From Phenylobacterium sp. (GTDB lineage: Bacteria; Pseudomonadota; Alphaproteobacteria; Caulobacterales; Caulobacteraceae), in the NCBI RefSeq assembly GCF_046291545.1, contig NZ_JBKBSM010000001.1, positions 102,900-166,899 on the forward strand: 64,000 nucleotides of DNA, written 5' to 3'. The translations under genes and the position numbers were made by a program. A model generated the notes under the pieces. It had not been told where the DNA came from. It was given only the letters and a program-made list of their open reading frames with translations, and did no database searches. This document shows, piece by piece, positions 1,025 to 42,605 of this stretch. Position 1 is the first letter of the stretch, and the number at the start of each line of letters is the position of its first letter.

Positions 1025-2473
1025 ATGACCTACGATTTCGCGCGCGACGGCGTGTTCATCGCTGGACGATGGCGGCCGTCCGGGTCCGGCGACACCCTGC
1101 CGATCGAGGACCCGTCGAGCGGCGAGACCCTGGGCGAGCTGGCCGCAGCCAGCGCCGCCGACGTGGACGAGGCGGTCGCCGCCGCCCGCGCGGCGAGCGA
1201 GGGCGACTGGGGCGCCATGCCAGCCTTCGAGCGCGGGCGGATTCTCAGCCGGATCGGCCAGGCGGTGCTGGCCGAGATGGACGCCCTGGCGGCGCTGGAG
1301 GCCACGGACGTGGGCAAGCCGCTGAGCCAGGCCCGCAACGACGTGGTCGCCCTGGCGCGGTACCTGGAGTTCTACGGCGGGGCGGCCGACAAGCTGCACG
1401 GCGAGACGATCCCGTTCCAGGCCGGCTACACCGTCTACACCCTGCGCGAGCCGCATGGGGTGACGGGGCACATCATCCCCTGGAACTATCCGATGCAGAT
1501 CATCGGCCGCTCGGTGGTGGCGGCCTTGGCCACCGGCAACGCGGCGGTGCTGAAACCGGCCGAGCAGGCGTCGCTGACCGCACTGAGCTTCGCGCGGATC
1601 GCCGCCGAGGCCGGACTGCCCGCCGGGGCGCTCAACGTGGTTCCCGGGACGGGGGCGGTGGCGGGCGCCATCCTCGCCGCGCATCCGGGGGTGGACCACA
1701 TCTCCTTCACCGGCTCGACGGCGGTGGGCCAGGCGATCCAGGCCGCGGCGGCCAGGAACGCCGTGCCGGTGACCCTGGAGCTGGGCGGCAAGTCGCCCCA
1801 GCTCGTGTTCGACGACGCGGACCTGGACAAGGCCCTGCCGTTCCTGGTCAACGCCGGGATCCAGAACGCCGGCCAGACCTGCTCGGCCGGCTCGCGCATC
1901 CTCGTGCAGCGCGGCGTCTACGACCAGGTGGTGGAGCGGATGGCCGCCCGCTACGGCGACCTGCGGGCCGGACCGGCGATGGCCGACCTGGAGGTCGGCC
2001 CGCTGATCAGCGCCAAGCAGCGGGTGATGGTGGAAAGCTATCTGGAGCTGGGCCGGCGCGAGCTGACCGTGGCGGGCGAAGGCAAGATCGCGGCCGAAGC
2101 GCCGGCGGGGGGCCATTATGTCGCCCCGACCCTGTTCGCCGACGTGCGCGGCGACCACGCCCTGGCGCAGGAAGAGATCTTCGGCCCGGCCCAGGTGGTG
2201 ATCCCGTTCGACGACGACGCCCAGGCCGTCGCCATCGCCAACGGCACGCCCTATGGGCTGGTGGCCGGGATCTGGACCGCCGACGGCGGACGGCAGATGC
2301 GCCTCGCCAAGCGGCTTCGCGCAGGCCAGGTGTTCATCAACAACTACGGCGCGGCCGGCGGGGTGGAGCTGCCCTTCGGCGGCGTCGGCCGCTCGGGCCA
2401 CGGGCGGGAGAAGGGGTTCGAAGCGCTCTACGCCTTCACGACCCTGAAGACGGTGGCGGCGCATCATGGGTGA
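1025..2473 (+). CDS. NAD(P)-dependent aldehyde dehydrogenase
   Basis: IIPWNYP, FTGS, LELGGKSP (catalytic Glu), GQTCSAG (catalytic Cys), EEIFGP; ATG 1025 after GGGAG. Confidence 0.95.
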   Translation: MTYDFARDGVFIAGRWRPSGSGDTLPIEDPSSGETLGELAAASAADVDEAVAAARAASEGDWGAMPAFERGRILSRIGQAVLAEMDALAALEATDVGKPLSQARNDVVALARYLEFYGGAADKLHGETIPFQAGYTVYTLREPHGVTGHIIPWNYPMQIIGRSVVAALATGNAAVLKPAEQASLTALSFARIAAEAGLPAGALNVVPGTGAVAGAILAAHPGVDHISFTGSTAVGQAIQAAAARNAVPVTLELGGKSPQLVFDDADLDKALPFLVNAGIQNAGQTCSAGSRILVQRGVYDQVVERMAARYGDLRAGPAMADLEVGPLISAKQRVMVESYLELGRRELTVAGEGKIAAEAPAGGHYVAPTLFADVRGDHALAQEEIFGPAQVVIPFDDDAQAVAIANGTPYGLVAGIWTADGGRQMRLAKRLRAGQVFINNYGAAGGVELPFGGVGRSGHGREKGFEALYAFTTLKTVAAHHG

Positions 2474-3230
2474 GGCGAAGGGCATGCGGCTGACAGGCAG
2501 GACGGCGATCGTGACGGGCGGAGCCTCGGGCTTCGGCGAAGGCATCGTGCGCAGGTTCGTCGAGGAGGGCGCGCGGGTGGCGATCGTCGACCTCAACGTT
2601 TCGGCGGCGCAGGCGCTGGCGGGCGAACTGGGCGACGCCGCCATCGCGGTGGGCGCGGACGTGTCCAAGGACGCGGACGTGGCGCGGCTGGCCGCCGAGG
2701 CGGTGCAGAAGCTGGGGCCGGTGGAGATCCTGGTGAACAACGCCGGCGTCGGGCACACGCCGCAGCCGCTGGAGACCCTGTCGGACGCCGACTTCGACCG
2801 GATCTGGGCGGTCAACGTGAAGTCGGTCTACCTGACGGCGCGGCACATCGTGCCGGCGATGAAGGCGGCCAGGCGCGGAGCGATCCTGAACGTCGCCTCG
2901 ACCGGCGGGGTCAGTCCGCGGCCAAACCTGACCTGGTACAACGCCTCCAAGGGCTGGATGATCACCGCCACCCGGGCGATGGCGGTGGAGCTGGCCCCCT
3001 TCGGCGTGCGGGTGAACGCGATCAATCCGGTCGCCGGGGAGACCCCGCTCCTCAAGACCTTCATGGGCGAGGACACCCCCGAGGTGCGGGCCAGGTTCCT
3101 GGCGTCGATCCCGCTGGGGCGGTTCTCGACGCCGGCGGACATGGGCGCGGCCGCGGCGTTCCTGTGCTCGGACGACGCTTCGATGGTGACGGGCGTGGCG
3201 ATGGAGGTCGACGGTGGCCGCTGCATCTGA
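2466..3230 (+). CDS. Short-chain dehydrogenase/reductase (FabG-like)
   Basis: [17 protein letters not shown]; overlaps the ALDH stop. Confidence 0.93.
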
Positions 3231-4326
3231 GCCCTTCCGCCTGCTGGTCCTGCCCGGGGACGGCATCGGCCCGGAGGTGATCGGTCAGACCCTGCGGGTC
3301 GTCGACTGGTTCGGCCGATTCCTCGGGCGGCCCTTTGCGATCAGCCAGGACCTGGTCGGCGGGGCCTGCCTCGACACGCACGGCGTTCCGGTGACGGACG
3401 CGGTGGTGGAGACCGCGCTCAGCGCCGATGCGGTGCTGTTCGGGGCGGTCGGCGGGGAGAAGTGGGACAGTCAGCCCATCCACCTGCGCCCGGAGGCCGG
3501 GCTGCTGCGGCTGCGCAAGGACCTGGACCTCTTCGCCAACCTGCGCCCGGCGATCTGCTATCCGGAGTTGGCCAGCGCCTCGGCGCTGCGGCCGGAACTG
3601 GTCGAGGGGCTCGATATATTGATCATCCGCGAGCTGACCGCCGGGGTCTACTTCGGCGAGCCGCGGGGCGTGGAGACCCTGGCGAACGGCGTGCGCCGGG
3701 CCTTCGACACCCAGGCCTACACCTCCGAGGAGGTGGAGCGGGTGGTGCGGGCGGGGTTCGACATCGCCCGCGGCCGCAACAGGCGCGTGTGCTCGGTGGA
3801 CAAGGCCAACGTGATGCAGACGGGCGCCTTCTGGCGCGAGATCGCCACCGCCGTCGGCCGCGACTATCCCGACGTGGAGCTGACCCACATGTACGCGGAC
3901 AACTGCGCCATGCAGCTGATGCGCCGGCCCAAGCAGTTCGACGTGGTGGTGACCGACAACCTGTTCGGCGACATCCTCTCGGACGCGGCGGCCATGCTGA
4001 CCGGATCGCTCGGCCTCCTGCCCTCGGCCTCGCTGGGAGCGGCGGGCCCGGACGGCGTCCGCAAGGCGCTCTACGAACCGGTGCACGGCTCGGCGCCGGA
4101 CATCGCCGGGCGGGGGCTGGCCAATCCGCTGGCGACGATCCTGTCGTTCGGCATGTGCCTGCGCCACTCGATGCGCGCGCCCGAGGCGGCCGATCGCCTT
4201 GAAGCCGCCGTGCGCCGCGTCCTGGCCCGGGGCGTTCGCACCGCCGACATCGCCCGTCCCGGCGAGGCGGGGGTGTCGACGACGCAGATGACCGACGCCG
4301 TGCTGGCGGAGTTGGATGCGATGTAG
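3214..4326 (+). CDS. leuB: 3-isopropylmalate dehydrogenase (beta-decarboxylating dehydrogenase)
   Basis: [53 protein letters not shown]. Confidence 0.85.
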
Positions 4327-4327
4327 C

Positions 4328-4345
4328 TGCTCAATCGGTTGAGCA
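4328..4345. promoter_or_regulatory. Perfect palindrome TGCTCAATCGGTTGAGCA, candidate XRE-cupin operator (site 1)
   Basis: 7-4-7 perfect inverted repeat upstream of the hydrolase-aminotransferase-ABC operon; related copies at 18185 and 18798. Confidence 0.7.
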
Positions 4346-4418
4346 CTAAACCCGGTTGGGCGCCGCGGGACGCGGGACTAGACTTGCGCGCTTGGGGACG
4401 CATTCGGCGGAGGGGGCC

Positions 4419-5423
4419 GTGCTGGCGAAGATCGGAATGGGGGTCTTGATCTTCATCGCGGCGCTCGCCGCCCTGGCGGGGCTGGCTTTCGCTGGGCTCT
4501 ACCGGCCAGACATCCCCTATGAGAAGCTTGAGGCCAAGTACGCCCGGCCGACCTCCCATTTCGCCGACCTGCCCGGCGGGGTGCGCATGCACTACCGCGA
4601 CGACGGTCCGCGCGACGCGCCGGTGGTCATGCTGGTGCACGGCTACGGGGACAGCTTCCTGACCTGGGAGCCCTTCATCGAGCGGCTGTCGCCGAATTTC
4701 CGGGTGATCACCATCGACCTGGCGGGCCACGGCCTGACCCGGGCGCCGGCGGGCTATGCGCCGGACATGGACCGCTTCGCCGAGCAGGTGGACGCCCTGG
4801 CTGCCAAGCTCGACCTGCCTCCCTTCGCCATCGTCGGCAACTCCATGGGGGGAGGCGTGGCCTGGCAGACGGCGGTCAGGTTCCCCGAGCGGGTGAAGGC
4901 GCTGGTGCTGGTGGACGCGGCCGGCTGGCCGGCGGACCCGAACAAGCCGGTCCCGGCCGCCTTCAAGATCCTGCAGAGCGACCTAGGCCGCTTCCTGCTG
5001 CAGCGGATCGAGACCCGGCCGCTGACGGCCCAGGGGCTGAAGATGGACGTGGTCGACGATTCCCTGATCACCCCGGCCTTCGTCGACCGCTGGGTCGAGG
5101 TGCAGCGCGCGCCTGGCCACCGGGCCATCCTGATGGGCGTGCGCCCGGGGCGGCACACCGTCGCCAGCGAAGCGGCGCTGGGCCAGATCAAGGCGCCCAC
5201 CCTGGTGCTGCATGGCGAGCAGGACGTGATCATCGATCCCGCGGACGGCCGCAAGTTCGCCGCCGCCATCCCCGGCGCGGCGCTGATCACCTATCCCAAC
5301 GCCGGCCACCTGCCGCAGTATGAAATCCCCGATCGCTCGGCCGCCGACGTGACGGCCTTCCTCCTGGCGCTGCAGGCCCCGCCCGCCGCGCCCGCCCCGC
5401 AACCCGCCAGGGACCCGGCATGA
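4419..5423 (+). CDS. Membrane-anchored alpha/beta-fold hydrolase
   Basis: N-terminal hydrophobic helix, HGYG, GNSMGG nucleophile elbow, GEQD acid, GH base; GTG 4419 after GGAGGGG (ATG 4437 is an alternative). Confidence 0.88.
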   Translation: MLAKIGMGVLIFIAALAALAGLAFAGLYRPDIPYEKLEAKYARPTSHFADLPGGVRMHYRDDGPRDAPVVMLVHGYGDSFLTWEPFIERLSPNFRVITIDLAGHGLTRAPAGYAPDMDRFAEQVDALAAKLDLPPFAIVGNSMGGGVAWQTAVRFPERVKALVLVDAAGWPADPNKPVPAAFKILQSDLGRFLLQRIETRPLTAQGLKMDVVDDSLITPAFVDRWVEVQRAPGHRAILMGVRPGRHTVASEAALGQIKAPTLVLHGEQDVIIDPADGRKFAAAIPGAALITYPNAGHLPQYEIPDRSAADVTAFLLALQAPPAAPAPQPARDPA

Positions 5424-6748
5424 CCACCCACTTCAAGCCCGCCGCCAATTCGCTGGACGCCTATTGGATGCCGTTCACGCCGAACCGGCGGTTCAAGGCC
5501 GATCCCCGGTTCGTCGAACGCGCCGAGGGCATGCACTACTTCACCCCCGACGGGCGGCGGATCCTGGACGCCACCTCGGGCCTTTGGTGCGTGAACGCCG
5601 GCCACAACCGCCCGCGGATCGTCGAGGCGATCCAGAAGCAGGCGGCCGAGATGGGCTACGCCACCACCTTCAACATGGGCCACCCCAAGGCCTTCGAGTT
5701 CGCCAACCGCCTGGCGGCCCTGGCGCCCGGCGACCTGAACCACGTGTTCTTCACCAACTCCGGCTCCGAGGCGGTCGACACGGCGCTGAAGATCGCCGTC
5801 GCCTACCAGCGCAGCCGCGGCAAGGGGACCAAGACCCGGCTGATCGGCCGCGAGCGCGGCTATCACGGCGTCGGCTTCGGCGGCATCTCGGTGGGCGGCA
5901 TCGTCAAGAACCGCATGTACTTCGGCTCGCTGCTGACCGGGGTGGACCATCTGCCGCACACCCACGACCTGGCGCGCAACGCCTTCTCCCGCGGGCAGCC
6001 CGAGCACGGCGCCGAGCTGGCCGACGAGCTGGAGCGGATCGTCACCCTGCACGACGCCTCCAACATCGCCGCGGTGATCGTCGAGCCGGTGGCCGGCTCG
6101 ACCGGGGTCCTGGTCCCGCCCAAGGGCTATCTGCAGCGCCTGCGGGCGATCTGCGACAAGCACGACATCCTCCTCATCTTCGACGAGGTGATCACCGGCT
6201 TCGGGCGGCTGGGCGCCTCGTTCGCGGCCGAGTACTTCGGCGTGCAGCCGGACATGATCACCATGGCCAAGGGCATCACCAACGCGGCGGTGCCGATGGG
6301 CGCGGTGGCCGTGCGGCCGCACATCTACGAGACCATGCTCGACAACGCCGACGCGCCGATCGAGCTGTTCCACGGCTACACCTATTCGGGCCACCCCTTG
6401 GCCTGCGCGGCCGGGCTGGCGACCCTGGACACCTATCGCGATGAAGACCTGTTCGGCCGCGCCGCGCGCCTGGCGCCGATGTGGGAGGAGGCCCTGCACG
6501 GCCTGGCCGACGCCCGCCACGTGATCGACATCCGCAACCTCGGCCTGATCGGCGGAATCGAGCTGGCGCCGCGTCCCGGCGCGCCGGGGGAACGGGCGAT
6601 GGAGGCGTTCCGCGCCAGCTTCGACCGGGGCCTGCTGGTGCGCGTGACCGGCGACATCATCGCCCTGTCGCCCTCGCTGATCATCGAGGAAGCCCAGATC
6701 GGCGAGATCATGGACACCCTGCGCCAGACCCTGGCCGAGATCGCGTGA
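5420..6748 (+). CDS. Class III omega-amino acid:pyruvate aminotransferase
   Basis: YWMPFT, SGLWCVNAGH, SGSEA, GYHG, FDEVITGFGRLG, AKGITN (PLP Lys), HGYTYSGHP. Confidence 0.93.
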   Translation: MTTHFKPAANSLDAYWMPFTPNRRFKADPRFVERAEGMHYFTPDGRRILDATSGLWCVNAGHNRPRIVEAIQKQAAEMGYATTFNMGHPKAFEFANRLAALAPGDLNHVFFTNSGSEAVDTALKIAVAYQRSRGKGTKTRLIGRERGYHGVGFGGISVGGIVKNRMYFGSLLTGVDHLPHTHDLARNAFSRGQPEHGAELADELERIVTLHDASNIAAVIVEPVAGSTGVLVPPKGYLQRLRAICDKHDILLIFDEVITGFGRLGASFAAEYFGVQPDMITMAKGITNAAVPMGAVAVRPHIYETMLDNADAPIELFHGYTYSGHPLACAAGLATLDTYRDEDLFGRAARLAPMWEEALHGLADARHVIDIRNLGLIGGIELAPRPGAPGERAMEAFRASFDRGLLVRVTGDIIALSPSLIIEEAQIGEIMDTLRQTLAEIA

Positions 6749-8148
6749 GCCCCGCCGCCGGCCATAGGACGAGCGGTCCGGCGGACTATCTCGGCAGCCC
6801 GGTGAGCCCGTGCGAGCCGGCGACGCTGGCGGCCGTCGACGACTTCGTCGGCGGCTTCCTCACCTATGAGCCGCGCGCCCTGGCGGTGCTGAAAGCCGCG
6901 GACGCCGACGCCGAGAGCGCCCTGGCCAACGCCTACGCCGGCGTGCTGCACATGCTGGGCGAGCACATGGCCGCGCCAGCCAAGGCCGCGGCCTACCTGG
7001 GCCGCGCAGAGGCGGCGCCCATGGCCAACGAACGCGAGCGGGGGATCATCGCCTTCCTGCGCGCCTGGATCGCCGACGACATCGACGCGGCCCTGGCGAT
7101 CGCCGACGAGGTGGTGGAGGCCTTTCCCACCGATCTGGCGATGGTCAAGCTCAGCCAGTACCTGAACCTGAACCGCGGCGACTTCCCGGCCATGCTGCGC
7201 ATCACCGACGCGGCGCTGGCGGCCAACTTCGCCGTGCCGCAGCTGCACGGCATGCGGGCCTTCGCCTATGAGCAGTGCCACCTCCTGGCCGACGCGGAAG
7301 CCGCCGCGCGCCAGGCGCTGCACATGCACATCCGCGAGCCCTGGGCGCAGCACGCCCTGGCCCACGTGATGCTGACCCAGGGGCGGATCTCCGAAGGCGG
7401 CGAGTTCATGGACGCGGCCTCGGAGACCTGGGCGGGCCTGAACTCGTTCATGTACACCCACAACTGGTGGCACCTGGCGCTGTTCCACCTGAGCCAGGGC
7501 CGCGGCGAAAGGGTGCTGGAGATCTACGACCGGCACTGCTGGACCCAGGACCGCACCTATTCCCAGGACCAGATCGGCGCAGTGTCGCTGCTCGCCCGCC
7601 TGGAGTTCGCCGGGCTGGAGGTGGGCGAGCGCTGGGCCGGCGTGGCCGAGCACCTAGTGGAGCGGGCCGAGGACGTGGTGCAGCCGTTCCTATCGCTGCA
7701 GTACCTGCTGGGCCTTGCCCGCGCCGGCCGGCCGGAGGCCGAGACGCTGATGGCGGCGATCGAGCGGCGCGTGCACGAGGCGCCGGCGCACAGCCGCCGC
7801 GCCTGGGCCGAGGCGGCCCTGCCGGCCGCCCAGGCGATAATGGCCCTGGAGCGGGGGCGGCCCGGCGCGGCGGTGGAGCGGATGGGCGCGGCCCTGCCCC
7901 GGCTGGTGGAGGTGGGCGGCAGCCATGCGCAGCGCGACCTCTTCGAACAGATCTTCCTGGAAGCCCTGCTGCGGGACGGGCGGCTGTCGCGGGCCCAGCA
8001 GGTGCTGGAGCTGCGCCGCGCCTTCGACCCGGACGGCGTTCCCCTCAACCTGGCCCTGGCGCGGGTCTACGACTCCCTCGGGTTGCCGGAACTGGCGGCC
8101 CGCGCCGCCTCCCGCGCCCTGCGTACCCAAGAAAGGCATGCGTGCTGA
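6745..8148 (+). CDS. TTC38-like tetratricopeptide-repeat protein
   Basis: Helical repeats with 'WAQHALAHV', 'HNWWHLALF' and 'GGSHAQRDLFEQ', recalled as typical of the TTC38 family; overlaps both neighbouring genes. Confidence 0.78.
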   Translation: MSPAAGHRTSGPADYLGSPVSPCEPATLAAVDDFVGGFLTYEPRALAVLKAADADAESALANAYAGVLHMLGEHMAAPAKAAAYLGRAEAAPMANERERGIIAFLRAWIADDIDAALAIADEVVEAFPTDLAMVKLSQYLNLNRGDFPAMLRITDAALAANFAVPQLHGMRAFAYEQCHLLADAEAAARQALHMHIREPWAQHALAHVMLTQGRISEGGEFMDAASETWAGLNSFMYTHNWWHLALFHLSQGRGERVLEIYDRHCWTQDRTYSQDQIGAVSLLARLEFAGLEVGERWAGVAEHLVERAEDVVQPFLSLQYLLGLARAGRPEAETLMAAIERRVHEAPAHSRRAWAEAALPAAQAIMALERGRPGAAVERMGAALPRLVEVGGSHAQRDLFEQIFLEALLRDGRLSRAQQVLELRRAFDPDGVPLNLALARVYDSLGLPELAARAASRALRTQERHAC

Positions 8149-9434
8149 TGCCCCATCCCCGTGAAGACGCCCTGCTCCGCGAGATCGAGGCACGGCGCGA
8201 CGACCTGGTGGCCCTGACCCAGGACCTGATCCGGTTTCCGACGATCAATCCGCCGGGGGACGCCTATCGCCCGTGCGCCGAATACCTGGGCGAGCGGCTG
8301 AAGAAGCGCGGCTTCGCCGTGGAGTACGTGCGGGCGGAAGGCTCGCCGGGGGACTGCGAGGCCTATCCCCGGATCAACGTCATCGCTCGCTGGGAGAGCG
8401 GCCGGCCGGGGCCGTGCGTGCACTTCAACAGCCATATCGACGTGGTATCGGTGGGCGAGGGCTGGACGGTGGACCCCTTCGGCGGGGTGGTGAAGGACGG
8501 CAAGGTCTACGGCCGTGGCGCCTGCGACATGAAGGGGGGTCTGGCCGCCTCGGTGATCGCGGTGGAGGCGCTGATCGATTCCGGCGTCGAGCTGCCGGGC
8601 GCGCTGGAGATTTCGGGCACGGCCGACGAGGAGAGCGGCGGCTACGGCGGGGTCGCGTACCTGGCCGAACGCGGCTGGTTCTCCAAGCCCCGCGTGGATC
8701 ACGTCATCATCCCCGAGCCGCTGAACGTGGACCGGGTGTGCATCGGCCACCGCGGCGTCTGGTGGTCGGAGATCACCACCGAAGGCCACATCGCCCACGG
8801 CTCGATGCCGTTCCTGGGGGACAACGCCGTGCGCCACATGGGCGCGGTGATCGCGGAGCTGGAGCGGCGGATCTTCCCGACCCTGAGCGCGCACCAGACC
8901 TCGATGCCGGTGGTGCCGGAAGGCGCGCGCACGCCGACGCTGAACATCAACTCCATCCACGGCGGGGAGCCGGACGTCACCGGCTCGGGCCTGCCCGCGC
9001 CGGTGGTCCCGGACAGCTGCCGGATCGTGCTGGATCGCCGGCTGCTGATTGAGGAGGACCTCGACGAAGTGAAGGCGCAGATGCGCTCGGTGCTCGACGG
9101 CCTCACCCAGACCCGGCCGAACTTCCGCTACCGGATGCGCGACCTGTTCGAGGTGCGTCCCTCGATGACCGAGCCGGACCGGCCGGTGGTGCGCATGACC
9201 TGCGAGGCCATCGAGCAGGTGCTGGGCAAGCCCGCCGACATCTGTTGCTCGCCAGGCACCTACGACCAGAAGCACATCGACCGCATCGGCAAGCTGCGGG
9301 ACTGCATCGCCTATGGCCCCGGAATCCTGGACCTGGCGCACCAGCCGGACGAGTACGTCGGCATCGACGACATGGTGAACTCGGCCAAGGTGATGGCCCT
9401 GTCGGCCTATGCCCTGCTGACCGGCCAGGCGTGA
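8148..9434 (+). CDS. M20 (ArgE/DapE-family) deacylase/amidohydrolase
   Basis: NSHIDVV, GRGACDMKGG, DEESGG, PEP, HGSMP, AHQPDEYV. Confidence 0.92.
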   Translation: MPHPREDALLREIEARRDDLVALTQDLIRFPTINPPGDAYRPCAEYLGERLKKRGFAVEYVRAEGSPGDCEAYPRINVIARWESGRPGPCVHFNSHIDVVSVGEGWTVDPFGGVVKDGKVYGRGACDMKGGLAASVIAVEALIDSGVELPGALEISGTADEESGGYGGVAYLAERGWFSKPRVDHVIIPEPLNVDRVCIGHRGVWWSEITTEGHIAHGSMPFLGDNAVRHMGAVIAELERRIFPTLSAHQTSMPVVPEGARTPTLNINSIHGGEPDVTGSGLPAPVVPDSCRIVLDRRLLIEEDLDEVKAQMRSVLDGLTQTRPNFRYRMRDLFEVRPSMTEPDRPVVRMTCEAIEQVLGKPADICCSPGTYDQKHIDRIGKLRDCIAYGPGILDLAHQPDEYVGIDDMVNSAKVMALSAYALLTGQA

Positions 9435-9441
9435 GCCGCCG

Positions 9442-12003
9442 TTGAGCCGCAGCGCCGACCATAGGGGCCGCTGGGCAGGGCTGCTGGCCCTGCTCTTCGG
9501 CGTGCTGCTGCTGGCGAGCCCGGCGGCGGCGCGCGACGTGCTGCGGATCGGCCAGCAGCTCGAGCCGCCGAACCTGGACCCGACCGCCGGCGCCGCGGCG
9601 GCCGTGGACGAGGTGGTCTACGGCAACGTCTTCGAGGGCCTGATCCACATCGGACGCAACGGCGGCGTGGAGCCGCGGCTGGCAGAGTCCTGGGAGATCT
9701 CGCCGGACGGCAGGATCTATGTCTTCCACCTGCGGCGGGGGGTGCGCTTCCACGACGGCGAGCCGTTCGACGCCAGCGTTGTGAAGTTCACCCTGGACCG
9801 GGCGCGGGCGCCGGAGTCCGCCAACGCCCAGAAGGCCAGTTTCGAGGTGATCGAGCGGGTCGATGTGGTGGACGCCCAGACCGTCCGCCTGGTGCTGAAG
9901 CGGCCGGACACGCGCCTGCTCTACGTGCTGGGCTGGGGCGATGCGGTGATGGTTGCGCCCAGGAGCGCCGCCGACAACGCCGTGACCCCGGTCGGGACAG
10001 GCCCCTACCGGTTCGTGGAATGGCGGCGGGGCGAATCGATCACGCTCGAGCGCTTCGCCGACTACTGGGGCCCTGCGCCCCGCATCGGACGGGTGGTGTT
10101 CAAGTTCATCGCCGACCCGACCGCCGCCTTCGCCGCGGTGAAGGCCGGGGACCTGGACGCCTTCCCCAATTTCCCCGCGCCGGAGAACCTGGCCGACCTT
10201 GCCGCCGACCCGCGCTTTCGGGTGGTGGTCGGTTCGACCGAAGGCGAGACGATCCTGGCGCTGAACAACGCCAAGCCGCCCTTCGACAAGCTGAAGGTCC
10301 GCCAGGCGATCAGCTACGCCATCGACCGCAAGGCGATCATCCAGGGGGCGATGTTCGGCTACGGCAAGCCGATCGGCAGCCATTTCCCGCCGCACAGCCC
10401 CGACTATGTCGACCTGACCGGACTCTATCCGCACGATCCGGCCAAGGCGCGGGCGCTGCTGGCGGAAGCGGGCTATCCCGACGGCTTCGAGGCGACGCTG
10501 AAGCTGCCGCCGCCCAGCTACGCCCGGCGGGGCGGGGAAATCGTCGCCGCGCAACTGGCCCAGATCGGCGTTCGGGTGAAGATCGAGAATCTGGAGTGGT
10601 CCCAGTGGCTGGACCAGGTGCTCGGCAACAAGAGCTTCGACATGACCATCGTCTCGCACACCGAGCCGATGGACTACGACATCTATGCGCGGCCGGACTA
10701 CTACTTCGGCTATCGCAGCCCGGCCTACGACGCGCTCATGGCGAAGCTCAACGCCGCCGTGGATCCGGCCGAGCGGCGCGCCCTGCTGGCGCAGATCCAG
10801 CGCAAGCTCGCCGACGATGCGGTGAACGGCTTCCTCTTCCAGTTCCCCAAGCTGAACGTGTGGGACGCCAAGCTGGAAGGCATGTGGGTCGACGCGCCGG
10901 TGCAGGCCAACGAGGCGGCCGAGGCCTGGTACGACGAACCGGGCGCGGCGGCCGCGCCGGCGGCCAGCCGCCGGACCGGCGGCGCGGGCGCCCTGCTCGG
11001 CTATGGCGTCCTCGCCGCCTGTGCGGCCTTCGCCCTCTACGGGTTCCTGCGGCTGGGGGCGGCCTATGTGGCGGGCCGGCTGGTGTCCCTGGCGCTGACC
11101 TTCCTGGCCGCCACGGTGGTCGTCTTCGCACTGATCCAGATCGTGCCGGGCGATCCGGCCGCCTTCATGATGGGGCTGAACGCAAACCCCGAGGCGGTGG
11201 CCGCCCTGCGCGCGCAGATGGGCCTGGATGCGCCGGCGCCCGAGCGTTACCTGACCTGGATCGCGGGCTTGGCGCACGGCGACTTCGGCGCCAGCTACAC
11301 CTACCGCGTGCCGGTGGCCCAGTTGATCGCCGAGCGGATGGCGGTGTCGCTGCCCCTGGCGCTCCTGGCCCTGGCGATCAGCCTGGCCGTGGCCCTGCCG
11401 ATTGGCGTGTTCGCCGCAAGCCGCCGGGGCAAGGCCTCCGACGCCCTGGTGATGGGCGCGACCCAGGTGGGCATGGCGCTTCCCAACTTCTGGCTGGCGA
11501 TGCTGCTGGTGCTGGTGTTCGCCATCGGCCTTCGCTGGCTGCCGGCGGGCGGCTTCCCGGGCTGGGACGCGGGACTCTGGCGCGGGCTGAAGGCGCTGGT
11601 CCTGCCGGCGACCGCGCTGGCCCTGCCGCAGGCGGCGATCCTGGCCCGGGTGCTGCGCTCGGCGCTGGTGGAGACCCTCGGCGAGGACTATGTGCGCACC
11701 GCGCGGGCCAAGGGCCTCTCGGAGAGCCAGGTCATCCGCCGCCACGCCCTGCGCAACGCCATGATCCCGATGCTGACGATCCTGGGCCTGCAGATCCCCT
11801 TCCTGCTGGCCGGGGCGGTGATCGTGGAGAACGTCTTCTTCCTGCCTGGGCTCGGACGTCTGGTGTTCCAGGCGATCACCCAGCGCGACCTGATCGTCGT
11901 GCAGAGCGTGGTGGTGCTGCTGGTCTTCGCCGTGGTGCTGGTGAACTTCCTGGTCGACCTGGGCTATGCGGCCGTCGACCCGCGGCTGAGGCGGGGGCGA
12001 TGA
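9442..12003 (+). CDS. Peptide ABC transporter: family-5 substrate-binding protein fused to a DppB-type permease
   Basis: Signal peptide; LDP..VYEGL-like and GTGPY SBP motifs; Ala-rich linker and one extra TM helix; then PGDPA...RTARAKGL permease, all in one frame. Confidence 0.88.
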   Translation: MSRSADHRGRWAGLLALLFGVLLLASPAAARDVLRIGQQLEPPNLDPTAGAAAAVDEVVYGNVFEGLIHIGRNGGVEPRLAESWEISPDGRIYVFHLRRGVRFHDGEPFDASVVKFTLDRARAPESANAQKASFEVIERVDVVDAQTVRLVLKRPDTRLLYVLGWGDAVMVAPRSAADNAVTPVGTGPYRFVEWRRGESITLERFADYWGPAPRIGRVVFKFIADPTAAFAAVKAGDLDAFPNFPAPENLADLAADPRFRVVVGSTEGETILALNNAKPPFDKLKVRQAISYAIDRKAIIQGAMFGYGKPIGSHFPPHSPDYVDLTGLYPHDPAKARALLAEAGYPDGFEATLKLPPPSYARRGGEIVAAQLAQIGVRVKIENLEWSQWLDQVLGNKSFDMTIVSHTEPMDYDIYARPDYYFGYRSPAYDALMAKLNAAVDPAERRALLAQIQRKLADDAVNGFLFQFPKLNVWDAKLEGMWVDAPVQANEAAEAWYDEPGAAAAPAASRRTGGAGALLGYGVLAACAAFALYGFLRLGAAYVAGRLVSLALTFLAATVVVFALIQIVPGDPAAFMMGLNANPEAVAALRAQMGLDAPAPERYLTWIAGLAHGDFGASYTYRVPVAQLIAERMAVSLPLALLALAISLAVALPIGVFAASRRGKASDALVMGATQVGMALPNFWLAMLLVLVFAIGLRWLPAGGFPGWDAGLWRGLKALVLPATALALPQAAILARVLRSALVETLGEDYVRTARAKGLSESQVIRRHALRNAMIPMLTILGLQIPFLLAGAVIVENVFFLPGLGRLVFQAITQRDLIVVQSVVVLLVFAVVLVNFLVDLGYAAVDPRLRRGR

Positions 12004-12825: not shown

Positions 12826-14433
<1,608 letters not shown>

Positions 14434-14498: not shown

Positions 14499-15503
14499 CT
14501 AGCCCTTGAGCGCCTCGTGTACGCCGCGGGCGATGGCGCGGGCGGTGCAGTCGGCGGCGGCCGAGCCGATCGCGGCGAGGCGGACGGCGCGATCGTCGCC
14601 GTGGCCTATCGAGCAGGCGCCGGTGGCGATGGCGAACAGGGTGTCGCCGTCGAAGGGCATGTGCGCCGGCCGCACCGCCCGGGCGAGGCCGTCGTGGGCC
14701 ATCATCGCCAGGCGCTTGCATTCGGCGGTGGTGAGGTCGGCGGTGGTGGCGACGACGCCGATGGTGGTGGCCGCGCCCGGTTGCAGGCGCCCCAGGCTGG
14801 CCAGCCGGCCGTCGTCGGGCACCGGGTCGATGGCGCCGACCGCGGGGTCGGGCCGGCCGCCGCCGAACTCCCCGTCGATCTCGAAGGGCCAGGCCCAGAA
14901 GGCGCGGCCGTCGGGGGTCATCACCGAGCCCACGGGATTGGCGACGATCAGCGCCCCCGCCACAAGGCCCCCGCCCATGTCCAGGGAGGCCGAGCCGACC
15001 CCGCCCTTGATCAGGCCGGCCATGGCGCCCAGTCCTGCGCCCGCCGAGCCCAGGGCGAACTGCGGCCCGGCGGCGTCCAGCGAAGCCATGCCGAGGCGGC
15101 GGTAGGGCGGATCCAGCCCCCAGGCCTTGTCCCCCGGGTTGGCGAGGTCGTGCAGGACCGCGGCGGGGACGATGGGGATGGCCGGAGACCCGGGCTTGAG
15201 ATGCAGACCGACGCCGCGGGCGGACAGGGCGGCGACCACCCCGTCGGCGGCGGCGAGGCCGAACACCGAACCGCCGGACAGAACGACGGCATGGGCGCGG
15301 CCGACCAGGTTCTCGGCCGCCAGGGTCTCGGTCTCCCGCACGCCGGGCCCGCCGCCGCGCACGTCGACGGAGGCGTTGTAGAAGCCCTCGCAGACCAGGG
15401 TGGTGACGCCGGTGCCGGCGGCGGAGTCGTCGGCGTGGCCGACCATGAGGCCGGCCACGTCGGTGATCAGGTTCCGGGGCCCGGGGCGGGGAAGCTGGCG
15501 CAT
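14499..15503 (-). CDS. DmpA/NylC-family (peptidase S58/P1) hydrolase, cytoplasmic copy
   Basis: NLITDVAGL.VGH, DVRGGGPG.RET, GGSVFGL, DGLARA, DGDTLFA; ATG 15503. Confidence 0.9.
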   Translation of the reverse strand: MRQLPRPGPRNLITDVAGLMVGHADDSAAGTGVTTLVCEGFYNASVDVRGGGPGVRETETLAAENLVGRAHAVVLSGGSVFGLAAADGVVAALSARGVGLHLKPGSPAIPIVPAAVLHDLANPGDKAWGLDPPYRRLGMASLDAAGPQFALGSAGAGLGAMAGLIKGGVGSASLDMGGGLVAGALIVANPVGSVMTPDGRAFWAWPFEIDGEFGGGRPDPAVGAIDPVPDDGRLASLGRLQPGAATTIGVVATTADLTTAECKRLAMMAHDGLARAVRPAHMPFDGDTLFAIATGACSIGHGDDRAVRLAAIGSAAADCTARAIARGVHEALKG

Positions 15504-15547
15504 GTCCGCGCCCTTCTGCCTCCTCGCGCCCGGGATGGAAAGCGGCC

Positions 15548-17737
15548 TCAGTAGGCGTAGGTCAGCCGCACCCCGTAGGTGCGCGGCGTGCCCCGCTGAC
15601 CCACCTCGGCTTCGGTGAAGAAGTTCCGGGTGAGGTCGTACTCCTCGTCGAACAGGTTGCGCACCCAGATCGACGCGCCCCAGGGGCCGTCGGCCGGCGT
15701 CACGCCGATGCTGGCGTTGGCCAGCCAGTAGGCCGGGATGTCGTACTTCTCGCCCAGCCAGGAGACCTGGTCGTCGCGCCAGCTGTAGTTCAGCTCGGAC
15801 CGGACCACGAAGTCGCCGACGTCCGCCGTGTAGGCGACGGAGCCGCCGTAGGTCCACTTGCCGAAGGGGATCTCCTGGCCGGACTTGTCGATGTAGACCT
15901 CCACGCCGGCGGCGCGGGTGGCGGGCACGTCGAGATCGCGGAACTCCTTGAACTCGCCGTCCTTGTAGCTGGCGCTCTGGCTGATGGTCAGGCCCGCGGT
16001 GGGGGCCCACACCAGCTCAAGCTCGCCGCCCCAGATCTCCGACTTGGGCGCGTTGACGAAACTGCCGACCAGCCCGTTGGCGGTGAGCCGGGCCGAGAGG
16101 ACCTGCTGGTCGCGGTAGTCGTAGAAGAAGGCCGCGCCGTTGAACTGCAGGGCCGCGGTCGGGTTGGTCTTGAAGCCGACCTCGTAGGCGTAGAGCGTCT
16201 CCGGCTTGAAGGCGGCGATCGCCGCGCGGTTGGCCGTGTTGTAGGTGGTGAAGCCCCCCGACTTCACGCCCTTGCTGGCCGAGGCGTAGATCAGGACGTC
16301 GGCCATCGGCTTGTATTCGAGCGCGATCTTCCCGGTGGTCGGGTTCATGTCGGTCTCGACCGAGCTCTCCGGCAGGGCCGTGGCGCCGCCGAAGGCCGAG
16401 GTGAAGTCCTGCAGCTCGCGGGTCTCCTCCTCGTAGCGCAGGCCGCCGATCAGCTTCCACTGGTCGTTGAAGGCGTATTCGGCCTGGCCGAAGACGCTCG
16501 CGGAGGTCACTTCCTGGGTGTAGCGGACGCGGGCGGTGAGGCCGTAGTTATCCAGGAAGTCGGAGTAGTAGCGCTCGCGCAGGACCTGACGGGAGACATA
16601 GACCCCGGCCACCCACTGCAGCGGCCCCTCGGTGTTGGACGCCAGGCGCAGCTCGTCCGACCAGACCTTCACCTTGGAGCCGAAGAAGACGTCGGCGGCG
16701 ATGGAGGAGGAGGCGTCGTAGTCGCCGTATTCCTCGCGGTGCAGGTAGTCGTAGGCGGCGATGTTGGTGAGCTTGACCGCCCCCAGGTCCCAGGAGGCGT
16801 TGGCCGAGGCGCCCCAGGTCTTGTTGTCGCGGCCAGGCTTGGAATCGACTTCCAGGCGGGTGTCGGCGACGAGGCCGGGCGAGATGCTCCAGCCGGTGCC
16901 GGTGGTGTCGGTGTCGGCCGGGATGGTCGGGCCGGCGCCGAAGCGGGTGGAGAACGGCTCAGTCAGGTAGAGGCCGATGTTCTCGGACTTGTCGATGCCG
17001 GCGTGAACGTCGAGCATCACGCCCAGGTTCGGCGTCACATCGATGTCGAGCATCGCCCGGGCCGCGACCTTGTCGGCGTCGCCCAGGGAATCGCCGGTTT
17101 CCCGGTTGTGCTGCCAGGCGCCGCCCTGCTCGGTCCCGAAGGACAGGCGGCCGCGGATCGATTCGCTGATCGGGCCGGAGATGTAGCCCTCGGCCTTCAG
17201 CGCCTCGAATCGGCCGAACTCCACCGAAGCGCCGGCCGCCACTTCGGCGGTGGGCATGCCGGTGATGAAGTTGATCGCCCCGCCGGTGGTGTTGCGGCCG
17301 TAGAGCGTGCCCTGCGGCCCGCGCAGCACCTCGACCCGCTGGACGTCGAAGATCAGACCCTGGGTCATGACCGGGATCGGATAGGCGACCTCGTTCACAT
17401 AGACGCCGACGGTGGGCGTGTTGTTGGTGGCGTAGTCCTGGAAGCCGACGCCGCGCAGGCGGAACTGGGCCGCGCCCGAGCCGAAGGCGGGCTCGATGTC
17501 CAGGCTCGGCGTCGCGGTCTGCAGCTGATTGACGTTGGTGATGCCCCGCTGGGCGAGGTCGTCGCCGCCGAGCACGGACAGGGCGATGCCCACGTCCTGG
17601 GCCGCCTGCTCCCGCCGCTGGGCCGTGACCACGATTTCTTCGACCGAGGCCTCGGCGGGCCTGGCCTGCGCCGCAGCGGCCCCGGCATGGGCGGCGCCCA
17701 CGATCCCGACGGCTGCGCTCACTAGGAAACGCTTCAT
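15548..17737 (-). CDS. TonB-dependent receptor
   Basis: Signal peptide, EEIVVTAQRR, RVEVLRGPQGTLYGRNTTGGAINF plug, C-terminal PRTYGVRLTYAY. Confidence 0.95.
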   Translation of the reverse strand: MKRFLVSAAVGIVGAAHAGAAAAQARPAEASVEEIVVTAQRREQAAQDVGIALSVLGGDDLAQRGITNVNQLQTATPSLDIEPAFGSGAAQFRLRGVGFQDYATNNTPTVGVYVNEVAYPIPVMTQGLIFDVQRVEVLRGPQGTLYGRNTTGGAINFITGMPTAEVAAGASVEFGRFEALKAEGYISGPISESIRGRLSFGTEQGGAWQHNRETGDSLGDADKVAARAMLDIDVTPNLGVMLDVHAGIDKSENIGLYLTEPFSTRFGAGPTIPADTDTTGTGWSISPGLVADTRLEVDSKPGRDNKTWGASANASWDLGAVKLTNIAAYDYLHREEYGDYDASSSIAADVFFGSKVKVWSDELRLASNTEGPLQWVAGVYVSRQVLRERYYSDFLDNYGLTARVRYTQEVTSASVFGQAEYAFNDQWKLIGGLRYEEETRELQDFTSAFGGATALPESSVETDMNPTTGKIALEYKPMADVLIYASASKGVKSGGFTTYNTANRAAIAAFKPETLYAYEVGFKTNPTAALQFNGAAFFYDYRDQQVLSARLTANGLVGSFVNAPKSEIWGGELELVWAPTAGLTISQSASYKDGEFKEFRDLDVPATRAAGVEVYIDKSGQEIPFGKWTYGGSVAYTADVGDFVVRSELNYSWRDDQVSWLGEKYDIPAYWLANASIGVTPADGPWGASIWVRNLFDEEYDLTRNFFTEAEVGQRGTPRTYGVRLTYAY

Positions 17738-18184
17738 GACTATCCCCGTTCTTCGACGCGCCTGCGCGCGCTCGCGACATGCTCCTCTGGAGCCCATTGG
17801 CCCGCCCGCCGGCGGCGGGACGAGCCTCTCCAGTCTAACCGCTCGATGAAGGATTCTTGAAGACTTACCGGCGTCGAGCGTTGGATGGCTAACAATCAGG
17901 CCTGTTCACGGTCAACGCGCCGAATACAGAACCTCCCCAAGATTCCATTTTTCGACCAATAAAATTGCGCACCCATCCAAATGCTAAGCAACAATATTTC
18001 GAGGGCGGGCTTTTATCGACGAATTCAATCACGTAAGGAGAAGCGGCCGGGTGGGGCAAGTAAGCACCCGCCACGTTCCTTCGCTCTAGTTGTTCGACGG
18101 CATGATCACTCGGCCGCAAGGCGGCGAACAGACTATTTGTTTGAATCGCCAAGCCATTGATTTTGCCCAACTAATGTCGCGACA

Positions 18185-18202
18185 TGCTCAATATTCCGAG
18201 CA
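18185..18202. promoter_or_regulatory. TGCTCAATATTCCGAGCA, candidate XRE-cupin operator (site 2)
   Basis: Two mismatches to the site-1 palindrome; at the far end of the AT-rich region upstream of the TonB receptor. Confidence 0.55.
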
Positions 18203-18797: not shown

Positions 18798-18815
18798 TGC
18801 TCAAAACGATGAGCG
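18798..18815. promoter_or_regulatory. TGCTCAAAACGATGAGCG, candidate XRE-cupin operator (site 3, autoregulatory position)
   Basis: Two mismatches to site 1; about 19 bp upstream of the regulator start. Confidence 0.6.

Positions 18816-41223: not shown

Positions 41224-42605
<1,382 letters not shown>

What the first reader, a model, noticed from the sequence alone, without database searches (positions are those of the whole stretch)
6745..8148. TTC38-like TPR protein translationally coupled inside a catabolic operon
Seen: it overlaps the aminotransferase stop (GTGA) and the M20 start (TGATG), and carries His/Trp clusters (QHALAH, HNWWH, GGSHAQR) unusual for a pure scaffold. Known: TTC38-type proteins exist in eukaryotes and their function is poorly defined. 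Inference: it is an enzyme, ligand binder or partner in this amide catabolism, so the bacterial context could hint at the family's function.
Basis: partly seen in the sequence, partly recalled or inferred. Interest (0 to 1): 0.62.

Follow-up and report, generated by a model that had tools for sequence, protein, structure and literature searches.

The report
TTC38-like protein in amide-catabolic operon
This gene encodes a true bacterial relative of the uncharacterised human protein TTC38; it has four invariant histidines and sits in a gene cluster, conserved across many Proteobacteria, for importing and breaking down an amide compound, which gives a practical way to find out what the family does.

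Summary
A 467-aa gene at 6745-8148(+) overlaps the stop of an AptA-type aminotransferase (GTGA) and the start of an M20 deacylase (TGATG). It carries the quoted His/Trp motifs.

TTC38 homology is confirmed over the full length (BLASTP E 3e-32; profile-profile 99.9%, E 6e-37). The AlphaFold model (pLDDT 95.6) is an all-helical TPR-like solenoid, and no relative has a solved structure.

Four histidines, in two HxxxH motifs 36 residues apart, are invariant from bacteria to mammals, as are Gly391 and Ser393 of the GGSxAQRD motif (Gln396 99%).

The genomic context is not random. In 60 species-level loci with full flanks, 58% have an amide/ester hydrolase directly adjacent and 63% a peptide-type ABC importer within 7 kb. 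Of 30 alphaproteobacterial genomes with the gene, 29 also carry the ThnT-like S58 hydrolase, against 28% of the others.

Published human data point the same way: damaging TTC38 variants raise an unknown metabolite whose mass fits only C5H11NO2S, and TTC38 binds hydroxamate drugs.

Best reading, inferred and not shown: a metal-dependent enzyme acting on a small amine intermediate of a beta/omega-aminoacyl-amide pathway, possibly pantetheine/pantothenate. The reaction and substrate are unknown.

The parts
6745..8148 (+). TTC38-family protein (P0001, 467 aa), cytoplasmic, all-helical; invariant H203/H207/H239/H243 and the GGSxAQRD motif
5420..6748 (+). Class-III omega-aminotransferase, AptA type; its stop overlaps the TTC38-like start (GTGA)
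   Evidence: NF052567, 766 bits, cut-off 500
8148..9434 (+). M20 ArgE/DapE-family deacylase (PRK13013); its start overlaps the TTC38-like stop (TGATG)
4420..5423 (+). Alpha/beta-hydrolase. The ORF opens at 4356; the likely start is GTG 4420, after a GGAGG. It has a hydrophobic N-terminus. Closest solved chain is 6i8w (an alpha/beta-fold hydrolase).
4328..4345 (.). Perfect palindrome TGCTCAATCGGTTGAGCA in front of the hydrolase-to-ABC unit. Two-mismatch copies lie at 18185-18202 and 18798-18815, flanking the regulator.
   Evidence: 4 matches in the window, three of them in this locus; 0.05 expected by chance
9442..12003 (+). Family-5 solute-binding protein fused in one frame to a DppB-type permease (853 aa)
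   Evidence: the same 852-855 aa fusion in L090 and L091
12000..12824 (+). Second ABC permease; ATGA overlap with the preceding gene
12826..14433 (+). ABC ATPase with two fused nucleotide-binding domains (Dpp/Opp type)
14499..15506 (-). Cytoplasmic S58 (DmpA/NylC-fold) Ntn hydrolase. Closest solved relative is the ThnT pantetheine hydrolase; the TT nucleophile site is conserved.
15548..17797 (-). TonB-dependent outer-membrane receptor
18231..18779 (-). XRE-HTH plus cupin regulator
19062..20195 (+). Second S58 hydrolase (about 52-54% identical to the first) with a twin-arginine signal (MNRRALL...), so presumably periplasmic
1025..2473 (+). Aldehyde dehydrogenase (start approximate)
2466..3230 (+). 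Short-chain dehydrogenase
3214..4326 (+). Extra LeuB-like 3-alkylmalate dehydrogenase. The only other copy in the genome, 57% identical, lies elsewhere on the same contig.

Best explanation
Shown: the gene encodes a cytoplasmic, full-length member of the TTC38 (StaR-like) family. It is a 24-helix TPR-like solenoid. Two HxxxH motifs (H203/H207 and H239/H243) lie 36 residues apart, which places them at equivalent positions on the first helices of two consecutive repeats. The gene is translationally coupled inside a conserved regulon: TonB receptor, periplasmic S58 hydrolase, fused SBP-permease ABC importer, then cytoplasmic S58, M20, alpha/beta-hydrolase and AptA transaminase, with an adjacent aldehyde dehydrogenase / SDR / LeuB-like unit.

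Inferred: the four histidines, with the Ser-x-x-Gln helix cap, Arg, Glu and Asp, form a metal and small-molecule site on the concave face. The protein would then be a metal-dependent enzyme rather than a scaffold. It would convert a small polar amine-bearing intermediate that the neighbouring amide hydrolases release or need. Hydrolases of at least four unrelated folds recur beside it, so what they share with it is most simply a metabolite and not a protein surface.

Most speculative: the pathway degrades a pantetheine/pantothenate-like beta-alanyl amide. The S58 would release a cysteamine-type amine. Another amidase would release beta-alanine for AptA. SDR, ALDH and the LeuB-like enzyme would oxidise the pantoate-like acid. 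The TTC38-like protein would handle the sulfur-containing amine.
For: TTC38 homology.

Fold: high-confidence all-helical model; no solved relative by structure or sequence beyond generic TPR hits (TM <= 0.52).

Conservation: in 88 sequences down to 27% identity, including 4 mammalian TTC38, H203, H207, H239, H243, G391 and S393 are 100% conserved. Q396, W200, W242 and R285 are >= 98%. W229, E98, D130, R97 and D398 are >= 85%.

Neighbourhood: of 60 species-level loci with at least 3 kb on both sides, 35 have a hydrolase (alpha/beta, S58, amidase-signature or M20) within 500 bp, 47 have one within 7 kb, and 38 have the peptide-type ABC importer within 7 kb. Gene order differs between alpha-, beta- and gamma-proteobacterial lineages.

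Genome co-occurrence: 29 of 30 alphaproteobacterial genomes with the gene also have the S58 hydrolase, against 76 of 271 without it (Fisher p 7e-14).

Paralogue: the 33%-identical copy in the same genome sits beside a beta-lactamase-fold serine hydrolase, judged from its SxxK motif only.

Operon: order and 4-nt overlaps are conserved at 79% and 68% identity.

S58: closest solved relative is ThnT, E 1.6e-46. ThnT cleaves the pantetheinyl group to cysteamine (PMC6097109).

Human data: rare damaging TTC38 variants raise urinary X-22162 (burden p 1.9e-22, positive effect; PMC7878905). Its m/z of 150.058 fits only C5H11NO2S among CHNOPS formulas. TTC38 is a reproducible thermal-profiling target of the hydroxamate panobinostat, listed with iron and zinc enzymes (PMC7666118).
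Against: No activity, metal content or substrate has been measured for any family member. I could not see the model coordinates, so the spatial clustering of the four histidines is inferred from repeat register and not observed. TPR-like solenoids usually bind proteins. About a fifth of orthologue loci show none of the recurrent neighbours. Distant family members have varied contexts: TauD, aldo-keto reductase, S49 peptidase, GNAT. The pantetheine/pantothenate assignment rests on family-level homology only. The LeuB-like gene is absent from all 80 species-level loci (it recurs only in the 79%-identical Phenylobacterium locus), and the aminotransferase from most. The S58 is also related to nylon-oligomer hydrolases. 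Mammals are not known to catabolise pantothenate, so the human and bacterial substrates may differ.
Confidence: 0.5

Rival explanations
1. It is a non-catalytic TPR adaptor or chaperone. It would bind and stabilise, assemble or regulate one of the pathway hydrolases or the ABC importer, and the conserved residues would form a peptide-binding groove.
For: The fold is TPR-like, and the best structural matches are all scaffolds such as NOT10, TTC7B, IFT-A and the OGT TPR domain. The gene is tightly translationally coupled to its neighbours. One long ORF in the database runs the TTC38-like part into the SBP-permease (P0125).
Against: The neighbouring hydrolases belong to at least four unrelated folds, which is hard to reconcile with one protein-binding surface. 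Four 100%-invariant histidines in two HxxxH motifs, conserved from bacteria to mammals, are atypical of peptide-binding TPR grooves. Human loss of function raises a small metabolite (PMC7878905), and a hydroxamate drug binds the protein directly (PMC7666118). P0001 matches no Pfam TPR model.
Confidence: 0.2
2. It is itself an amide hydrolase, a new helical metallo-amidase. It could be the long-sought pantothenase or a related deacylase, with the neighbouring hydrolases cutting other bonds of the same substrate.
For: HxxxH on a helix resembles the metal-binding helix of zincins. Hydroxamates typically inhibit zinc hydrolases (PMC7666118). As of 2023 the protein responsible for pantothenase activity was still unknown (PMC10393543). 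The operon has candidates for every step after pantothenate hydrolysis.
Against: The catalytic Glu of HExxH is absent (HALAH, HNWWH). The locus already encodes four hydrolases (ABH, M20 and two S58). From memory, older enzymology of pantothenase describes an acyl-enzyme intermediate, which fits a Ser/Thr nucleophile better than a metal site.
Confidence: 0.15
3. The protein is an enzyme as proposed, but the pathway is not pantetheine/pantothenate. It degrades oligomers of beta- or omega-amino acids (beta-peptides, or natural nylon-like oligoamides), in the manner of the NylA/B/C plus NylD/E system.
For: The S58 also matches nylon hydrolases (9cxr, E 5e-34; NylC, about 1e-16). Amidase-signature (NylA-type family) and apparent beta-lactamase-fold (NylB-type) hydrolases recur beside orthologues or the paralogue. 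An aminotransferase plus aldehyde dehydrogenase mirror NylD/NylE (my own knowledge). A TonB receptor and a periplasmic S58 copy suggest an oligomer trimmed outside the cytoplasm.
Against: ThnT is the closer S58 relative (E 1.6e-46). This scheme leaves no obvious role for SDR, the LeuB-like dehydrogenase or a sulfur-linked TTC38 function. No substrate data exist.
Confidence: 0.25
4. It is a small-molecule sensor or ligand-binding regulatory protein that reports the pathway substrate to the XRE-cupin regulator or the transporter.
For: The polar site is conserved without a recognisable catalytic motif. A dedicated regulator and operator sites are present in the locus.
Against: It has no DNA-binding or signalling domain. 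It is not adjacent to the regulator in most loci. The cupin domain of the regulator already provides a ligand sensor. The human metabolite phenotype fits turnover better.
Confidence: 0.08

Closest known systems
Animal TTC38 (tetratricopeptide repeat protein 38; e.g. macaque UniRef A0A2K6DRN0 = P0299)
   Same: Homologous over the whole length: same size (467 vs 469 aa), E 3e-32 pairwise and E 6e-37 profile-profile. Both have the WxxHxxAH, HNxWH and GGSxAQRD motifs.
   Different: Only 24-25% identical. The His of GGSHAQRD is Asn in mammals and E176 is Met. The animal protein has no operon context and its function is unknown. It is known only from omics: the X-22162 mQTL and panobinostat binding.
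StaR of the Streptomyces toyocaensis A47934 glycopeptide cluster (CDD cd05804 'StaR_like'; recalled from memory, not tested)
   Same: CDD places it in the same family as TTC38. Like P0001, it is a bacterial member encoded inside a metabolic gene cluster.
   Different: Its context is biosynthetic, not catabolic. I could not retrieve the sequence or the CDD model, so membership of P0001 in cd05804 is inferred through TTC38 only.
Canonical TPR scaffolds (OGT TPR domain, TTC7B, NOT10, IFT-A)
   Same: Helix-turn-helix solenoid architecture; Foldseek probability 1.0.
   Different: Low TM-scores (<= 0.52) and 9-17% identity. P0001 matches no Pfam TPR model. It has an invariant four-His cluster and a metabolic operon context.
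ThnT / ThnR / ThnH coenzyme-A breakdown in thienamycin biosynthesis
   Same: The neighbouring S58 hydrolase is the closest relative of ThnT among solved structures (E 1.6e-46, nucleophile TT conserved).
   Different: ThnT belongs to a biosynthetic cluster. No Nudix or HAD partner was seen here. From memory, a TTC38-like protein is not part of that system.
Classical pantothenate catabolism of Pseudomonas (pantothenase EC 3.5.1.22; pantoate 4-dehydrogenase 1.1.1.106; dehydropantoate dehydrogenase 1.2.1.33; dimethylmalate dehydrogenase 1.1.1.84; my own knowledge)
   Same: The operon holds one candidate of the right enzyme class for each step, plus a beta-alanine-type transaminase.
   Different: No gene has been assigned to pantothenase (PMC10393543), and the searched library holds no paper assigning genes to the pathway, so nothing can be compared by sequence. 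The match is by enzyme class only.
Nylon-oligomer system NylA/NylB/NylC with NylD/NylE
   Same: The same three hydrolase families, plus a transaminase and an aldehyde dehydrogenase, recur around TTC38-like genes.
   Different: From memory, no TTC38-like component is described in Nyl systems. The S58 here is nearer to ThnT.

Membership tests
TTC38 / StaR-like family | Significant, full-length sequence similarity to animal TTC38 | tested here: met
   BLASTP against P0299: 25% identity over 385 aa, E 3e-32. hhalign of A1 against A2: probability 99.94%, E 6e-37, 419 columns, 16-440 against 16-460. The TTC38 sequences came from the database and are named by NCBI/UniRef.
TTC38 / StaR-like family | Single-domain, all-helical protein of about 440-470 aa | tested here: met
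   467 aa; AlphaFold model with 24 helices and pLDDT 95.6. Homologues are mostly 430-470 aa.
TTC38 / StaR-like family | Shared invariant motifs (two HxxxH, GGSxAQRD) | tested here: met
   H203, H207, H239, H243, G391 and S393 are 100% conserved and Q396 99% in 88 sequences including 4 mammals.
TTC38 / StaR-like family | Match to the curated family models (CDD cd05804, PANTHER PTHR16263) | not testable with these tools
   These libraries are not available here. Pfam-A and NCBIfam have no family-specific model.
Canonical TPR repeat proteins (Pfam TPR clan) | Match to TPR sequence models | tested here: not met
   P0001 matches no Pfam family at E <= 0.1. Only some relatives carry weak TPR hits. 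The resemblance is at fold level only.
Zincin metallopeptidases | HExxH with a catalytic Glu | tested here: not met
   The motifs are H-A-L-A-H and H-N-W-W-H, with no Glu at +1.
Pantetheine/pantothenate catabolic cluster (hypothetical) | Pantetheine-hydrolase-type S58 enzyme | tested here: inconclusive
   ThnT is the closest solved relative, E 1.6e-46 over residues 24-314 of 351, with the TT site conserved. Substrate specificity cannot be read from this.
Pantetheine/pantothenate catabolic cluster (hypothetical) | Enzymes for pantoate to dimethylmalate to 2-oxoisovalerate, and for beta-alanine removal | tested here: inconclusive
   SDR, ALDH, an extra LeuB-like dehydrogenase and AptA are present. 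The LeuB-like gene is absent from all 80 species-level loci; it recurs only in the 79%-identical Phenylobacterium locus L090.
Pantetheine/pantothenate catabolic cluster (hypothetical) | Growth on, or induction by, pantothenate or pantetheine | not testable with these tools
   Needs culture work.
Nylon-oligomer (Nyl) type degradation system | NylC-type S58 endo-hydrolase | tested here: inconclusive
   Matches to 9cxr (E 5e-34) and NylC (about 1e-16) are real but weaker than the match to ThnT.

The most novel reading that the evidence does not exclude
The TTC38 family is a previously unrecognised class of all-helical, four-histidine metalloenzymes acting on small sulfur-containing amines of the cysteamine type. 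This operon is the genetically undescribed bacterial route for pantetheine/pantothenate catabolism and includes the orphan pantothenase. The same chemistry explains why human TTC38 loss raises the unidentified C5H11NO2S metabolite X-22162.
Probability: 0.15. Interest if true: 0.85.

Novelty: new member of a known kind. Interest (0 to 1): 0.62.

Why it matters
TTC38 is conserved from bacteria to humans. In the 8.4-million-paper library searched no biochemical function is reported for it, and no relative has a solved structure in the PDB copy used. Human genetics and drug-target profiling indicate that it handles a small metabolite and binds metal-chelating drugs.

The bacterial orthologues sit in a compact, inducible catabolic regulon in culturable organisms such as Caulobacter, Variovorax, Pseudomonas and Sulfitobacter. 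The family's function can therefore be approached with knockouts, metabolomics and simple enzymology.

The same locus is also a concrete candidate for the pantothenate/pantetheine degradation pathway. The pantothenase gene has been missing since the 1960s.

Tried and rejected
- Pfam and NCBIfam scans of P0001 found nothing useful: 0 Pfam families and a sub-threshold PilW hit.
- Sequence and profile searches of the PDB found no relative. Foldseek against the PDB found only generic TPR solenoids with TM <= 0.52, so no enzyme fold could be assigned.
- Model coordinates are not exposed, so pocket and metal-site geometry could not be computed.
- Looking up names for ten distant representatives yielded only bacterial 'TPR repeat protein' labels. 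I then typed human TTC38 from memory solely as bait and used the database sequences it retrieved for all tests.
- Fusions:
  - A GNAT-TTC38-like fusion exists on one 3-kb metagenomic contig only. This is weak evidence.
  - A TTC38-SBP-permease read-through ORF (P0125) is probably a gene-calling or frameshift artefact.
- Distant homologue contexts are heterogeneous, with TauD seen twice. They give no consistent signal.
- Literature searches for a bacterial TTC38 function, for an identification of X-22162 and for genes of pantothenate catabolism returned nothing decisive.
- A regulator role was rejected because there is no DNA-binding domain.
- A zincin was rejected because there is no HExxH.
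- A secreted protein was rejected because there is no signal peptide.
Full report
**Observation.** The reading frame at 6745-8148(+) gives a 467-aa protein (P0001).
- Its GTG start (6745-6747) overlaps the TGA (6746-6748) of the upstream gene 5420-6748. Its TGA (8146-8148) overlaps the ATG (8148-8150) of the downstream gene 8148-9434.
- The quoted motifs are present: QHALAH at 202-207, HNWWH at 239-243 and GGSHAQR at 391-397.
- The upstream gene is a class-III aminotransferase that scores as the AptA omega-aminotransferase equivalog (766 bits, cut-off 500). The downstream gene is an M20 ArgE/DapE-family deacylase (PRK13013, 739 bits).
- The same GTGA junction occurs in relatives at 79% and 68% identity, and all genes from the aminotransferase to the ABC importer overlap by 4-8 nt there.

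**Is it TTC38-like?** P0001 matches no Pfam family and nothing useful in NCBIfam.
- Names of distant representatives did not help. I therefore used a TTC38 sequence recalled from memory only as bait.
- It retrieved database proteins that NCBI and UniRef name 'tetratricopeptide repeat protein 38', and every test used those database sequences.
- BLASTP of P0001 against macaque TTC38 gives 25% identity over 385 residues, E 3e-32.
- A profile of 53 bacterial orthologues against a profile of 12 mammalian TTC38 gives probability 99.94%, E 6e-37, over 419 columns, covering residues 16-440 against 16-460.
- Homology is therefore full-length and secure.

**Structure.** AlphaFold2 with the orthologue alignment gives mean pLDDT 95.6 and pTM 0.92, with 24 helices and no strands of note.
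- Foldseek against the PDB finds only generic TPR solenoids at TM <= 0.52 and 9-17% identity.
- Sequence and profile searches of the PDB find nothing.
- The family thus has no solved structure in this PDB copy.

**Conservation.** I aligned 88 sequences: P0001, 83 near-full-length (420-490 aa) representatives down to 27% identity, and 4 mammalian TTC38.
- H203, H207, H239, H243, G391 and S393 are invariant.
- Q396, W200, W242 and R285 are >= 98% conserved. W229, E98, D130, R97 and D398 are >= 85%.
- The His inside GGSHAQRD is Asn in mammals, so it is not a family feature.
- The two HxxxH motifs lie on helices 199-211 and 234-250, exactly 36 residues apart. That is about one TPR-like repeat, so the four histidines should sit side by side on neighbouring helices.
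- There is no signal peptide or membrane segment, so the protein is cytoplasmic.

**The locus.**
- Upstream unit: aldehyde dehydrogenase, SDR and a LeuB-like dehydrogenase. The LeuB-like gene is an extra copy; the only other copy in the genome is 57% identical and lies elsewhere.
- A perfect palindrome, TGCTCAATCGGTTGAGCA, follows at 4328-4345.
- Main unit: alpha/beta-hydrolase, AptA, the TTC38-like gene, M20, a solute-binding protein fused in frame to a permease, a second permease and a double ATPase.
- Convergent genes: a cytoplasmic S58 hydrolase and a TonB-dependent receptor.
- Beyond them: an XRE-cupin regulator flanked by two imperfect copies of the palindrome, and a second S58 hydrolase with a twin-arginine signal.
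- This reads as outer-membrane uptake, periplasmic trimming, ABC import and cytoplasmic breakdown of an amide-linked compound.

**Is the context conserved?** A scan of one genome per species returned 80 orthologue loci (44-63% identity over the best aligned segment) from alpha-, beta- and gammaproteobacteria. I checked neighbours by tblastn with the window's proteins and by de novo clustering of neighbouring ORFs.
- 60 loci have at least 3 kb on both sides.
- Hydrolases (alpha/beta, S58, amidase-signature or M20):
  - 35 loci (58%) have one within 500 bp, and 47 (78%) have one within 7 kb.
  - Alpha/beta-hydrolases are the commonest immediate neighbour: 24 adjacent and 37 within 7 kb.
  - S58 lies within 7 kb in 26, and within 10 kb in 36 of the 83 loci scanned by tblastn.
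- 38 loci (63%) have the peptide-type ABC importer within 7 kb.
- M20, ALDH, SDR and the aminotransferase each occur in roughly 5-15 loci.
- Gene order differs between lineages, which argues for selection rather than shared descent.
- The window's own genome has only two S58 genes in 3.9 Mb, and both lie in this locus.
- Across 301 alphaproteobacterial genomes, 30 carry the TTC38-like gene and 29 of these carry the S58 homologue, against 76 of the 271 others (Fisher p 7e-14). Genome size confounds this comparison.
- The 33%-identical paralogue in this genome sits beside what looks like a beta-lactamase-fold serine hydrolase (SxxK motif; not scanned against any family library) and what appears to be a TetR-type regulator, judged from the translation only.

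**What the neighbours suggest.**
- The S58 protein's closest solved relative is ThnT (E 1.6e-46; the Thr-Thr nucleophile site aligns). Nylon-oligomer hydrolases come next (5e-34 to 1e-16).
- ThnT cuts the pantetheinyl group to release cysteamine (PMC6097109).
- From my own knowledge, classical pantothenate degradation in Pseudomonas runs as follows: pantothenase yields pantoate plus beta-alanine. Pantoate 4-dehydrogenase, dehydropantoate dehydrogenase and dimethylmalate dehydrogenase then lead to 2-oxoisovalerate.
- The locus has one candidate of the right class for every step, plus a beta-alanine-type transaminase.
- The identity of pantothenase was still unknown in 2023 (PMC10393543), and I found no paper assigning genes to the pathway.
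- This is a class-level match only. The LeuB-like gene recurs only in the closest relative.
- An equally coherent alternative is breakdown of beta- or omega-amino-acid oligomers. The three hydrolase families seen around TTC38-like genes are the NylA, NylB and NylC families, and a transaminase plus an aldehyde dehydrogenase mirror NylD/NylE.

**Independent evidence from the human protein.**
- Rare damaging TTC38 variants raise urinary X-22162 (burden p 1.9e-22, positive effect; PMC7878905). A missense variant is a plasma mQTL for the same unknown (PMC5780481).
- The supplement lists X-22162 at m/z 150.058 in positive mode with very early elution. Enumerating formulas leaves a single CHNOPS candidate within 2.5 mDa, C5H11NO2S, an isomer of methionine, assuming the ion is [M+H]+.
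- TTC38 is repeatedly recovered as a direct thermal-profiling target of the hydroxamate panobinostat, alongside HDACs and the iron enzymes PAH and FADS1/2 (PMC7666118).
- Accumulation on loss of function points to turnover of a small molecule. Binding of a hydroxamate drug suggests a metal site.
- Two of four sampled distant bacterial homologues lie near TauD-type dioxygenases, and one lies by an NMT1-type binding protein. This is a weak hint towards organosulfur amines.

**Mechanism I commit to.**
- The protein is a metal-dependent enzyme, not a scaffold.
- Its active site is formed by the four-histidine cluster and the Ser-x-x-Gln helix cap.
- It acts on a small amine-bearing intermediate shared with the neighbouring amide hydrolases. 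Confidence is about 0.5.
- Within that reading, I favour action on a cysteamine-type sulfur amine in a pantetheine/pantothenate-like pathway, at roughly 0.15 overall.
- Shown: homology, fold class, the invariant residues, conserved coupling and conserved neighbourhood.
- Inferred: metal binding, catalysis, the substrate and the pathway identity.

**Rivals.**
- A non-catalytic TPR adaptor for the hydrolases or the importer (0.2). This is weakened by the unrelated folds of the neighbours and by the human metabolite phenotype.
- The protein is itself a new metallo-amidase, possibly pantothenase (0.15). This is weakened by the lack of a catalytic Glu and by four hydrolases already being present.
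- A ligand sensor (0.08).
- Separately, the operon may target beta- or omega-amino-acid oligomers rather than pantetheine (0.25).

**Novelty and verdict.**
- The protein is a new, well-supported member of a known but functionally blank family.
- The value of the finding is that it turns the question 'what does TTC38 do?' into ordinary bacterial genetics and enzymology, and it flags a candidate locus for an orphan vitamin-degradation pathway.
- Earlier unverified notes from this scan independently list TTC38-like genes beside amidases and ABC importers in other genomes. They agree with my neighbourhood analysis but are not counted as evidence.

Noticed in passing
window 9442-12003 (+): One 853-aa frame joins a family-5 solute-binding protein to a DppB-type permease. 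The same 852-855 aa fusion is called in two relatives, so it is a real evolved fusion and not a sequencing error.
   Followed up: partly
window 19062-20195 (+) and 14499-15506 (-): Two S58 (ThnT/NylC-like) hydrolases about 52-54% identical to each other. One has a twin-arginine signal (MNRRALL...) and one has none, which suggests sequential periplasmic and cytoplasmic cleavage. These are the only two S58 genes in the 3.9-Mb genome.
   Followed up: partly
window 4328-4345, 18185-18202, 18798-18815: The palindrome TGCTCAA-N4-TTGAGCA occurs once perfectly before the hydrolase-to-ABC unit and twice with 2 mismatches around the XRE-cupin regulator (0.05 matches expected by chance). It is probably the regulator's operator. 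A fourth 2-mismatch copy lies at 41557-41574.
   Followed up: partly
window 3214-4326 (+): A LeuB-like 3-isopropylmalate dehydrogenase (TIGR00169, 459 bits) sits in a catabolic cluster. The only other copy, 57% identical, lies elsewhere on the same contig (C15:612245-613285). It is a candidate dimethylmalate/alkylmalate dehydrogenase.
   Followed up: partly
G000 contig C14:23481-24701 (-) = L086 1501-2970 (-): A 33%-identical TTC38-like paralogue carries the same His motifs. It lies next to a secreted hydrolase with an SxxK motif, apparently of the beta-lactamase fold, and an apparently TetR-type regulator transcribed divergently; neither neighbour was scanned against a family library.
   Followed up: partly
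window 4420-4480 (+): The alpha/beta-hydrolase starts with a hydrophobic stretch (GVLIFIAALAALAG). Its best solved match is 6i8w, which I recall as a membrane-anchored phospholipase of Pseudomonas. It may be membrane-tethered.
   Followed up: no
L092 257-2203 (P0256): A 648-aa protein on a 3-kb metagenomic contig fuses a GNAT N-acetyltransferase domain to a TTC38-like domain. This hints that the family's substrate or product is an amine.
   Followed up: partly
window 20253-21317 (+): An ORF with a FliK (flagellar hook-length control) C-terminal domain lies directly after the catabolic locus.
   Followed up: no
L037, L039, L054, L055 (Pseudodonghicola and a Paracoccaceae MAG): In these loci the TTC38-like gene follows Liv-type ABC permeases and a GMC (choline-dehydrogenase-like) oxidoreductase instead of the Dpp-type importer and S58 hydrolase.
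   Followed up: no
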